Positions 9,001 to 12,000 of a DNA stretch of 13,502 nt are shown in pieces. Source of the stretch: Candidatus Micrarchaeia archaeon. Its GTDB lineage: Archaea > Micrarchaeota > Micrarchaeia > Anstonellales > J096. The DNA is taken from assembly GCA_041500405.1 (NCBI GenBank), contig JBGQMB010000024.1, forward strand, positions 1 to 13,502, read 5' to 3'. How positions within the stretch are numbered: position 1 is the stretch's first letter; every line of letters starts with the position of its first letter. Made by a program: the position numbers.

Positions 9001-12000
9001 AGTCTTCTATCGGCACTAAGCCTGTTTCCGCGTTCACCAGGGAATTGCCTGCGAGGCAGAAGCAACCGCCGCCGTGCCTTGAGTATCCGCCATAAGTGTC
9101 TACTATGATTTTTCTTCCGGTCACTCCGGTGTCCGCTTCAGGGCCGCCAATCGAGAACACGCCGGTCTCGTTGACAAAGAACTTTGTGTCTTTGTCCAGC
9201 CATTTTCCGCAAACAGGCTTTACTATGTGCTCTATTACCTGCGCCTTTATTTCCTCCCTTTTCATGTCCGGGTGGTGGTGCACTGCGACAACGACCGCGT
9301 CAACCCTCTTGGGCTTTCCGTCAATATATTCCACTGTGACCTGGGACTTGCCGTCAGGCCTTACCCATTTTAGTATGCCTTTTTTCCTCACTTCCGCAAG
9401 CCTCATTGTTATGCCATGCGCAAGCATTATCGGCAATGGCATGAGCTGCGGCGTCTCCTTGCATGCAAATCCAAACATCATGCCCTGGTCCCCTGCGCCC
9501 TGCTCGTGCTTTGCGGAAGAATCAACGCCTACCGCGATGTTCCTGCTCTGCTCGTGTATTGAAACAAGGACTCCGCAGTCTGAAGAATCAAGCCCGAACT
9601 CCGGGTCTGTGTATCCGATGTCCTTTAGCGTGCTCCTTATCACCGCAGGTATGTCCACGTAGCAGTTTGTCGTGACCTCTCCCGCCACCATCACAAGGCC
9701 TGTTGTCGTAAGCGATTCCACCGCAACCCTTGCGTCGGGGTCCTTGGCAAGCATCGCGTCAAGTATAGCGTCTGAAACCTGGTCGCATATCTTGTCAGGA
9801 TGGCCTTCTGTAACGGATTCTGATGTTATCTTAAAGCTTTTCATGTTGGCACCTGGCTCATTGTTGAACAACAAGTTTTTTAAAATCAGTTTTAATCATT
9901 GAAAAAGTGACTGGAAGGCAATAGGAACGTATTTAAACCCTATCAGACACTATTAACGCAATGACTACCAGCATAACCCAAGCACCGGCATTGGCTCTAG
10001 GGCATACCCCAGCCCCGCGCATACACGAGGATTGCATAGCGGACGAGTCGTTGCCAACGTCAAAGGCGGGGATAGTGATAAAGCTGGTAAGGAGACTCAA
10101 CAGGGTCCTGGGCCAGTACTCAAAGGAGAACGAGGAAAGGATTGGCAAGGATATTGTAATCCTGATAGAAGGCATAAAGAGAGAGGAACACAACAAGTTC
10201 ATGACTGGGAATTTCGTGAATAGGCTGGTTACGGGAAAGGACATACTGAAGGAGGTTTACAAAAGCGCCAAGTATTTAACCCTGGAGTTAGGCCAGCTGA
10301 TGCACGAGGGGGTGCTTGAAAGCAAGGCCGAGCAAGAGCACAACAACAAGAAAATTGAGGAAGAAAAGGAAAAGGTGACCCGCATAATATGGGCAATAAG
10401 GTTCGAGCTCAGGATTCTTGAAATGACGATTAATAATGAAAGCTACGATTACCTGATTACCGACCAAATCAAAACAGAGGTCAACAAGTTCATACCCGTG
10501 ATAAGGTCGGATATTGACAAGTTCTGCGCTGTGCATGGGATAAAGGAGCCTCAGCCCAGTATAAACGAACCGCCAAGCACAGCATCTCCGGAATAAAAGG
10601 CGGCGATTTGGCCGGGAGCCACTGCCCAGATGGGCTTTTCCTTCATTTTGACTTCAGCATAGCCGGCCCTTTGCGTTATGGCTGCGCTTTGCGGCTCCAT
10701 CCTGTTCCTGACAACAACTTCAACGTCCATTGATTCGCCTTCCTTTAGCGGAGGCACGGAGCACCAGTTTATGGGCCCGACGCGGAAAGAACCCTTTAAC
10801 GGGCTCTTGAAGCTTCCAACAACAACCTTGCCCGACTTTGCGTCTATTTCCTTGACGAAGTGGGGCTCGCTGGATTCTATGCCAAGGCCCCTTCTTTGGC
10901 CTATTGCGAAACAGTATATGCCGCTGTGCCTTGCAAGGACCTTTCCTGTTGCGTCAACAATGTCGCCTTCCATTTTTCCGGCTTTTGCCTCCATATATTC
11001 CTTCCTTGGGCATTTGACAAAGCACAGGTCCTGGCTTTCCGGCTTTTCGTGGACGTTGAGATTGAGCAAGGCTGCAATCTCCTTGACCCTCTTTTTCTGG
11101 AGATGCCCCATTGGAAAAACGGATTTGGAAAGCATTTCCTGGGTAAGCATGGAAAGCACATAGGTCTGGTCCTTGAATTTGTCCACCGGCTTCATCAGGG
11201 CATATCTTTTGCCGTCGAAAAAAGACCTTGCGTAATGGCCGGTTGCATAAAAATCATTGTGCTTGAGCGCGTGCTTCATCAGCATGCCGAATTTTATGAA
11301 AAGGTTGCACTGCACGCAGGGGTTTGGCGTAAGGCCGTTAAGGTAGCTTTCAACAAAGTAGCTGACCACCTTTTCCTTGAAAAGGGATTTCACGTCAACT
11401 GTCTCGAATGGGATGCTGAGCTTTGCCGCCACCGATTTGGCGTCATCGAGCGCGGCCTTGTTGAACGCAGGGTCTGTTTCCGGGAGGGTCAGCATGTGGA
11501 GCCCTGTCACTTTGGCGCCTGCCAGCTTGAGGAGCGCGGCTGTTGTTGAGCTGTCAACGCCCCCGCTCATCGCGACCGCGACCCTTTTTCCTTCCATTGA
11601 GCGCAGCAGGGAAAGCAGCTCCTGCGGAAGATCCAGCTCATCCAGGGTTTTTTGCATATTACAGCATATCCAGGGATATGTTTTAATTCATTGCAGGGCA
11701 AAGCGCCATGATGAAGCTCATTGTCATGCTTGCCCTGCTGGTTTCAGTATCATTTGCCTGGGACTGGGACACGCACCAGTGGTTTGCCGGAAAACTGTGC
11801 GAGGCATACAACTGCAGCTGCATGGAAGAGGCCAAAGCAGGGGCGATAGCCCCTGACCAGGTTTTCAAGGACACGTTCTACCATCACCTTTACGACCCTG
11901 CAACATGCGTGCCGAGCCCGTATTATACCTGCCCTACGGAATATGACGCCGCTGCGATAGTCAGGATGAATGCCTGGCTTTCAAACGTTTCGAAGCCGTG

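What a model noticed while it worked through the whole genome (the two positions that open the first line are those of the whole stretch)
10551..11657. Bacterial C-type MnmA displaces archaeal NcsA for wobble-U thiolation
This archaeon encodes a full bacterial MnmA with a CxxC + C (Fe-S type) motif and no NcsA/TtuA. Across the order the two are largely mutually exclusive, which points to non-orthologous replacement of the s2U34 enzyme.
Evidence so far: TIGR00420 matches 24 of 176 order genomes from 6 families, 23 over the cut-off. PF01171 is found in 5 of 19 MnmA-positive and 25 of 29 MnmA-negative genomes (48 of 176 chosen by completeness; call 131; Fisher p 4e-5, call 134). Within one genus the split is 0 of 7 against 5 of 6. 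The motif is read from the sequence.
(Added by a program. Inside this text positions count along the whole contig: contig position 1 is position 1 of the stretch shown here. "Call 12" and the like, gene names such as g00115 and contig names such as C1 are that model's own, and its searches are not shown. The text may have been shortened before it was handed on; [...] marks where a part breaks off. The agent that wrote the report below was given it as the finding of a first reader that could run no searches.)

Follow-up and report, generated by a model that had tools for sequence, protein, structure and literature searches.

The report
Bacterial tRNA sulfur enzyme in archaea
A tiny archaeon carries the bacterial enzyme that puts sulfur on the wobble base of tRNA. 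Across its relatives this one gene almost never occurs together with the usual archaeal enzyme and its ubiquitin-like helpers, which suggests the archaeal pathway has been swapped out several times.

Summary
Confirmed and strengthened. 10551-11657(-) is an intact C-type MnmA (above both curated cut-offs; PP-loop, C114/C117/C212; no CC motif) on an archaeal contig of a Micrarchaeota genome.

In the order, an NcsA-model hit occurs in 5 of 24 MnmA genomes against 133 of 152 others. Four of the five carry a divergent TtuA-like paralogue, so only one has canonical NcsA. The SAMP-activating enzyme UbaA is in 0 of 24 against 95 of 152. In one genus, the samp-ncsA slot is assembled and empty in 8 of 8 informative MnmA genomes. 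MnmA sits in 6 separate lineages; independent pairs give 5 for and 0 against (p 0.06). Outside the order, 0 of 13 MnmA genomes have NcsA.

Corrections: an ncsA 3' fragment is in this assembly (probably a mis-join). The nearest relatives are other DPANN MnmAs, not a named bacterium. Many genomes (171 in two families) have neither enzyme, so the order of gain and loss is open. There is no assay, and the NcsA versus TtuA labels are inferred. I did not find this in print or in earlier scan notes.

The parts
10551..11657 (-). mnmA, tRNA 2-thiouridine(34) synthase, C-type variant without the CC motif, 368 aa
11550..11567 (-). PP-loop S31-G-G-V-D-S36 (ATP binding, U34 adenylation)
   Evidence: read from the translation; invariant in alignment A1
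11307..11318 (-). C114-x-x-C117, predicted first two Fe-S ligands
   Evidence: equivalent to T. thermophilus Cys105/108 by the motif definition in PMC7025502
11022..11024 (-). C212, predicted third Fe-S ligand
10704..10709 (-). R317-N318 where 35 of 40 sampled bacterial MnmAs have R-Y (C-terminal barrel)
   Evidence: a tRNA-contact role for this pair is recalled, not checked
3897..4787 (+). Nop5/Nop56 gene: archaeal marker on the same contig (context, not part of the system)

Best explanation
The gene is a working C-type MnmA that makes 2-thiouridine at U34 of tRNA-Lys(UUU), Glu(UUC) and Gln(UUG) in place of the archaeal NcsA-SAMP-UbaA pathway.

Shown here: family membership, catalytic motifs and fold; the three substrate tRNA genes; a SufS-like desulfurase with a SufU/IscU neighbour and SufBD-family genes; no intact ncsA, samp or ubaA found; near-exclusive distribution in several lineages.

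Inferred from T. thermophilus MnmA: the PP-loop adenylates U34, a [4Fe-4S] cluster on C114/C117/C212 binds sulfur taken directly from the desulfurase, and that sulfur displaces AMP.

Inferred history: MnmA of ultimately bacterial type moves between DPANN archaea. Once present, it makes the three-gene ubiquitin-like relay dispensable and that relay is deleted. C5 of the wobble base is still left to archaeal Elp3, giving a hybrid pathway.
For: HMM, structure and motif evidence. Substrate tRNAs. Fe-S and sulfur supply in G000. Order: NcsA-model hit in 5 of 24 vs 133 of 152, and 2 of 10 vs 51 of 53 among genomes at least 90% complete. UbaA 0 of 24 vs 95 of 152. Genus g14 (23 genomes): 10 MnmA, 11 NcsA, 0 both, 2 neither. 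Empty slot in 8 of 8 informative MnmA genomes. Six lineages on the EF-2 tree. Outside the order 0 of 13 vs 63 of 74; family f15 splits 3 MnmA + 6 NcsA of 9. Four of the five 'both' genomes carry paralogues outside the 38-row canonical clade that score TtuA over NcsA. Elp3 is kept in 3 of 4 MnmA genomes tested and MnmG is found in 0 of 5.
Against: No assay. The independent-pairs test is not significant: p 0.125 on all 76 rows, 0.0625 with the 9 'neither' rows set aside. 19 of 152 MnmA-negative order genomes and all 171 sampled genomes of families f13/f14 lack both; with those families counted, the out-of-order contrast is only 0 of 13 vs 63 of 245 (p 0.04). G038 (93% complete) has the empty slot and no MnmA. 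G143 has both. No order protein reaches the NcsA (500) or TtuA (450) cut-off, and a canonical one matches P. horikoshii TtuA (204 bits) better than M. maripaludis NcsA (179). G000 is 86% complete and also lacks Elp3, which its congener has, so its own absences are weak alone. mnmA never sits in the ncsA slot.
Confidence: 0.75

Rival explanations
1. Loss first, rescue later. NcsA-SAMP-UbaA is lost through genome reduction regardless of MnmA, and MnmA is then retained only where the function is vacant. The function is the same but the order of events is reversed, so it is gap filling and not displacement.
For: Losses without MnmA are frequent: g3 (0 of 6), G162, G038 with an assembled empty slot, f13 0 of 89, f14 0 of 82. 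ncsA is not essential at 42 C in H. volcanii (PMC4048286, passages).
Against: G143 has an MnmA that groups with genus g14 (SH 99) although EF-2 puts it in another family. It still has canonical ncsA on a branch twice as long as its sister's (0.65 vs 0.30), and no UbaA or adjacent samp was found: this looks like gain before loss. MnmA was found in none of the 171 'vacant' f13/f14 genomes.
Confidence: 0.3
2. The order-wide enzyme is really TtuA (U54) with a TtuB-like carrier. The anti-correlation then reflects shared ecology or sulfur metabolism and not one enzyme replacing another.
For: The HMM margins are small (e.g. 232 vs 215 bits; G160 and G143 score TtuA higher). The best PDB match of a canonical protein is PH0300 TtuA. 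A ubiquitin-like carrier serves both targets in T. kodakarensis (PMC11323500, passages).
Against: 8 of 10 canonical-looking proteins from MnmA-negative genomes score NcsA over TtuA (G160 and G107 do not). A separate divergent TtuA-leaning group exists and co-occurs both with canonical NcsA (G146, G147, G171) and with MnmA. One of its carriers, G167, has reverse gyrase. A U54 enzyme has no evident reason to exclude a U34 enzyme within one genus.
Confidence: 0.12
3. Artefact: mnmA is bacterial contamination, or ncsA is merely unassembled.
For: MAGs are 72-100% complete; G000 is 86% complete and holds an ncsA 3' fragment at a contig end.
Against: mnmA shares a contig with Nop5; tetranucleotide correlation is 0.972 (median 0.966) and codon use is typical. 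It lies between metK and the same two downstream genes in 3 congeners. The slot is assembled and empty in 8 of 8 informative genomes. In three runs, contigs leave the C22 sequence at position 170 with other letters, and the fragment is seen only in one run at depth 2.7 vs 9.9.
Confidence: 0.04

Closest known systems
C-type MnmA of Thermus thermophilus (Shigi et al. 2020, PMC7025502; passages read)
   Same: PP-loop, CxxC + C, three-domain MnmA architecture; the paper shows a [4Fe-4S] cluster and sulfur transfer from IscS or SufS
   Different: This one is in an archaeon, whereas the paper assigns archaea to NcsA. It lacks the CC motif, like the Campylobacter/Helicobacter variant (CC was dispensable in TtMnmA). 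It has R-N instead of R-Y in the C-terminal barrel.
Archaeal NcsA-SAMP2-UbaA pathway (H. volcanii, PMC4048286; M. maripaludis NcsA, PDB 6SCY, PMC10067955; passages read)
   Same: Same predicted product (s2U34), with PP-loop and three-Cys Fe-S chemistry
   Different: Different protein family (TM 0.36 to 6SCY); Zn-finger tRNA-binding domains absent; no ubiquitin-like carrier or E1 enzyme found in MnmA genomes
D-type MnmA of E. coli / S. pneumoniae (PDB 2DER, 2DET, 2DEU, 2HMA; PMC8053098, passages read)
   Same: Fold TM 0.83-0.88, 32-34% identity
   Different: D-x-x-C instead of C-x-x-C; E. coli uses the Tus relay and MnmEG for C5; MnmG was not found in 5 of 5 MnmA genomes tested
Bacterial queuosine genes in DPANN (PMC8204110; passages and 2 supplements searched)
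   Same: A bacterial wobble-base tRNA modification pathway in DPANN archaea
   Different: An addition of a pathway and not the exchange of a native enzyme; the paper does not mention MnmA

Membership tests
MnmA (NF001138 / TIGR00420) | Score above curated cut-off | tested here: met
   354.9 > 284 and 295.5 > 236.95
MnmA | HUP + PRC-barrel + C-terminal beta-barrel domains and MnmA fold | tested here: met
   PF03054, PF20259, PF20258; TM 0.83-0.88 to 2HMA/2DER/2DET/2DEU
MnmA | PP-loop, TGHY, KDQ and PGQ motifs | tested here: met
MnmA | C-terminal R-Y pair (tRNA-contact role recalled) | tested here: not met
   R317-N318; R-Y in 35 of 40 bacterial rows and 0 of 23 order rows; several out-of-order archaeal MnmAs keep R-Y
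MnmA | Makes s2U34 on tRNA Lys/Glu/Gln | not testable with these tools
   Substrate tRNA genes are present; no assay
C-type MnmA | CxxC + C ligand motif | tested here: met
   C114, C117, C212; present in all 24 order genomes
C-type MnmA | N-terminal CC motif | tested here: not met
   Absent in this protein and the 10 group-B order proteins, present in group A; PMC7025502 describes a CC-less variant and finds CC dispensable
C-type MnmA | Binds an oxygen-sensitive [4Fe-4S] cluster | not testable with these tools
   Fe-S assembly genes are present
Non-orthologous gene displacement | Complementary distribution of the two genes | tested here: met
Non-orthologous gene displacement | Pattern survives correction for kinship | tested here: inconclusive
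   Independent pairs 5 same / 0 opposite, p 0.0625; p 0.125 with all rows; too few pairs within the order
Non-orthologous gene displacement | Absence is a real deletion, not an assembly gap | tested here: met
   Slot assembled and empty in 8 of 8 informative g14 MnmA genomes; not testable by slot in the window's own family
Non-orthologous gene displacement | Both proteins do the same job (the displaced gene is a U34 enzyme) | tested here: inconclusive
   HMM preference and samp adjacency favour NcsA; cut-offs not reached; the best PDB hit is a TtuA

The most novel reading that the evidence does not exclude
MnmA circulates among DPANN archaea (two deep groups, one shared with CPR bacteria) as a one-gene substitute for the three-gene NcsA-SAMP-UbaA relay. 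It has replaced that relay at least five times in this order and again elsewhere in the phylum. It takes sulfur straight from SufS and works with archaeal Elp3 in a hybrid wobble-uridine pathway. As a side effect it removes the cell's whole ubiquitin-like (sampylation) system, and G143 is caught mid-swap.
Probability: 0.5. Interest if true: 0.72.

Novelty: new variant of a known kind. Interest (0 to 1): 0.6.

Why it matters
[quoted passage not shown] This is a counter-example repeated within single genera, so it gives natural matched pairs for testing whether the two enzyme classes are interchangeable on archaeal tRNA. It also suggests that tRNA thiolation is what keeps the SAMP/UbaA ubiquitin-like system in these small genomes, and that MnmA can act beside Elp3. 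It may have been overlooked because annotation lumps it: a Micrarchaeota survey's supplement lists K00566 in the ThiI/arCOG00038 row (that K00566 is MnmA is recalled).

Tried and rejected
(1) The ncsA 3' fragment at G000:C22:3-185 as a fossil of the displaced gene: rejected as more likely a mis-join. Congeners G156 and G157 have no match, and its best match among 47 order proteins is only 52%. The missing cover of positions 1-169 in three runs proves nothing by itself. The continuation seen in the runs was not found in the assembly. No RNA holder was listed for that stretch.

(2) In-situ replacement (mnmA in the ncsA slot): no shared neighbours.

(3) A named bacterial donor: none. The best named bacteria are 43% identical or less, and the 80 loci are biased by one search pattern (all 40 used share it).

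(4) One acquisition in the order's ancestor: a single clade of order MnmAs is rejected (AU p 1.4e-4), as is an archaea-only clade (p 1.7e-4). Groups A+B with three bacterial rows are neither shown nor rejected (support 24). The groups were named after seeing a tree.

(5) Weak TIGR00420 hits as degenerate MnmA: those sampled were NcsA-family or GuaA.

(6) Thermophily as the explanation of the TtuA-like paralogues: reverse gyrase in only 1 (G167) of the 3 carriers tested. A homologue search with the G163 protein gave no informative names.

(7) Slot test in genus g8: uninformative, the region is rearranged.

(8) Literature: searches listed nothing on archaeal MnmA. The supplement of PMC7025502 could not be read, the supplement of PMC12892359 was cut when stored, and subscription journals are mostly not covered.

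Full report
Observation. The ORF at 10551-11657(-) gives 368 aa. It passes the curated cut-offs of both MnmA models (354.9 vs 284; 295.5 vs 236.95) and has all three MnmA domains. Its AlphaFold model (pLDDT 96.3) overlays MnmA structures at TM 0.83-0.88, against 0.35-0.37 for TtuA and NcsA. The PP-loop, C114, C117 and C212 are invariant among 70 aligned homologues. By the definition in Shigi et al. 2020 (PMC7025502, passages) it is a C-type enzyme of the variant without the N-terminal CC.

The gene belongs to this archaeon. The contig carries Nop5, matches the bin in tetranucleotides (0.972; median 0.966), and the gene's codon use is typical. It lies between metK and the same two downstream genes in the two congeners. 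Proteins identical to MnmA of other genomes in the order are named Micrarchaeota by NCBI.

The window's own genome (G000, 916 kb, 86% complete). It has tRNA-Lys(UUU), Glu(UUC) and Gln(UUG), a SufS-like desulfurase next to a SufU/IscU gene, and SufBD-family genes. No intact NcsA, ThiF/UbaA or ThiS/SAMP was found.

In 3 of 4 public runs laid on it, contigs follow the assembly only from position 170 and carry other letters before it. The X3/X4 letters, read by hand, continue the lipoprotein frame for 10 codons. The fragment appears only in the fourth run, as a separate 192-base contig at depth 2.7 against 9.9 for the host, and no contig bridges the joint. I read it as a mis-join through about 21 shared bases; a rare strain variant is not excluded. 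G000 also lacks Elp3, which its congener has, so its own absences are weak. All three genomes of the genus (86, 77 and 92% complete) lack the NcsA hit.

Distribution in the order (176 of 176 genomes searched). MnmA is in 24 (23 over the cut-off, one split over two contigs), all with CxxC + C. The NcsA model NF047749 hits 5 of 24 MnmA genomes and 133 of 152 others (nominal Fisher p 6e-11). Among genomes at least 90% complete it is 2 of 10 vs 51 of 53.

Of the five 'both' genomes, four (G163, G164, G165, G167) carry proteins that score 186-195 bits on the TtuA model against 73-120 on NcsA. The two tested match solved TtuAs better than M. maripaludis NcsA, and all four fall outside the 38-row canonical clade (SH 99) on a 47-row tree. 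Only G143 has canonical NcsA.

The E1 enzyme family ThiF/UbaA is in 0 of 24 vs 95 of 152; many NcsA genomes lack it too. A small ORF ending in GG lies directly upstream of ncsA in 9 of 19 loci inspected, which fits the NcsA-SAMP2-UbaA pathway of H. volcanii (PMC4048286, passages).

The absence is a real deletion. In genus g14 (23 genomes: 10 MnmA, 11 NcsA, 0 both, 2 neither), ncsA lies between topo VI-A and a long gene I labelled transglutaminase-like from recall (no family search) in 6 of 8 NcsA loci inspected. In 8 of the 10 MnmA genomes the region is assembled (one has no topo VI-A hit, one contig ends), and in all 8 samp and ncsA are missing. The gaps are as small as about 15-36 bases in G030, G029 and G024, and unrelated genes are inserted in G023 and G037. 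The two 'neither' genomes show the same empty slot: G031 is nearly identical to an MnmA genome on EF-2, while G038 (93% complete) looks like a loss without replacement.

Independence. On an EF-2 tree of 76 of the 176 genomes (80 searched, chosen to cover families f1, f2 and f4-f12 plus 8 of f3; 4 without a usable sequence), MnmA sits in six separate lineages: this genus, the clade f6-f9, G143, g8 and two subclades of g14. Canonical NcsA is absent in five of the six and UbaA in all six. The pair test gives on average 4.3 same, 0 opposite, p 0.125 on all rows, and 5 same, 0 opposite, p 0.0625 with the 9 'neither' rows set aside: consistent in direction, but too few pairs.

A 401-genome phylum sample (at least 80% complete) adds 13 MnmA genomes in four other families, none with an NcsA-model hit. 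Family f15 splits 3 + 6 of 9 and f17 splits 8 + 7 of 18. Two large families (89 and 82 genomes) have neither. Without them the contrast is 0 of 13 vs 63 of 74; with them it is 0 of 13 vs 63 of 245 (p 0.04).

Origin. On a 126-row tree archaeal MnmAs form two groups. Group A (SH 100) holds g8, g14, G143, most out-of-order Micrarchaeota, Woesearchaeota and one row named Nitrososphaeria, with Parcubacteria, Kuenenbacteria and Omnitrophota rows at its base. Group B (SH 88-92) holds this genus, f6-f9 and a Nanoarchaeia protein, and no named bacterium. A single clade of order MnmAs is rejected (AU p 1.4e-4); A+B together is unresolved. The window's gene is closest to f6-f8 proteins although EF-2 places the genus elsewhere, and G143's gene is sister to a g14 subclade. 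The immediate donors therefore look archaeal. The bacterial sample is biased by its search pattern, the trees are quick single-gene trees, and no root was inferred. That NcsA is the ancestral state is an inference from its breadth (178 of 401) and its largely genus-coherent tree (G158/G160 are an exception).

Mechanism. Shown: motifs, fold, substrate genes, sulfur and Fe-S supply, and missing relay genes. Inferred from TtMnmA, which uses a three-Cys [4Fe-4S] cluster and accepts sulfur from IscS or SufS (PMC7025502): U34 adenylation, then sulfur transfer from the cluster, with no ubiquitin-like carrier needed. That explains why samp and ubaA go together with ncsA. Elp3 is kept in 3 of 4 MnmA genomes tested and MnmG was found in 0 of 5, so the wobble base would be built by an archaeal C5 enzyme and a bacterial-type C2 enzyme. 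All 23 order rows have lost the Tyr of an R-Y pair kept in 35 of 40 bacterial rows, but several out-of-order archaeal MnmAs keep it, so it is not required for work on archaeal tRNA.

Novelty. The protein is a plain member of a known family, and NCBI already names such proteins MnmA in Micrarchaeota, Woesearchaeota and Nanoarchaeia. The papers read in passages (PMC7025502, PMC8053098, PMC10067955, PMC5372739, PMC13066941) assign archaea to NcsA or do not mention archaeal MnmA. Nine searches listed no report of it; supplements I could not see, notably that of PMC7025502, may bear on this. Non-orthologous displacement and bacterial genes in DPANN are well-known kinds of event, so this is a new variant of a known kind: a real, repeated, pathway-level swap in a step described as domain-specific. 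Confidence 0.75 in functional replacement; the order of gain and loss is open. Interest 0.6.

Noticed in passing
window 7337-9874 (-): Bacterial-type MetK (TIGR01034 above cut-off) interrupted by a ~450-aa LAGLIDADG intein; the congeners' MetK (391 and 384 aa) have no intein.
   Followed up: partly
phylum families f13 (89 genomes) and f14 (82 genomes): Neither MnmA nor an NcsA-model hit in any of 171 sampled genomes; five checked have no PF01171 hit over the cut-off and one checked lacks Elp3. This suggests wholesale loss of wobble-U modification or a third enzyme.
   Followed up: partly
L062 (G000:C22:1-190): Probable chimeric contig end joining an ncsA 3' fragment to a lipoprotein gene.
   Followed up: yes
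G143 (L006, L063): The only genome with MnmA and canonical NcsA; its MnmA groups with genus g14, its NcsA has a longer branch than its sister's, and no UbaA or adjacent samp was found. Possible mid-replacement state.
   Followed up: partly
L064-L067, L069-L072, L054: Divergent TtuA-leaning paralogues in G163-G165, G167, G170, G171, G146, G147 and G107; target unknown; reverse gyrase only in G167 of those tested.
   Followed up: partly
L293, L294 (G307, G251; also G250, G278): Short, long-branched MnmA variants in family f17, below the HMM cut-offs but keeping CxxC + C in the two examined.
   Followed up: no
L310, L312, L040: Topo VI-A appears to carry an intein in G023, G042 and G041 (open frames of 855-958 aa).
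   Followed up: no
window 9961-10596 (+): 211-aa ORF with no family hit, overlapping the mnmA 3' end by 46 bases and conserved in the genus.
   Followed up: no
window 953-3296 (+) and 6180-6764 (+): Kinase-like and GT4 glycosyltransferase-like ORFs and an ankyrin-repeat ORF; the ankyrin gene is absent from the same position in congener G157.
   Followed up: no
G032 (L004, L258): Two mnmA copies in a genome with 7% contamination; probably mixed strains.
   Followed up: no
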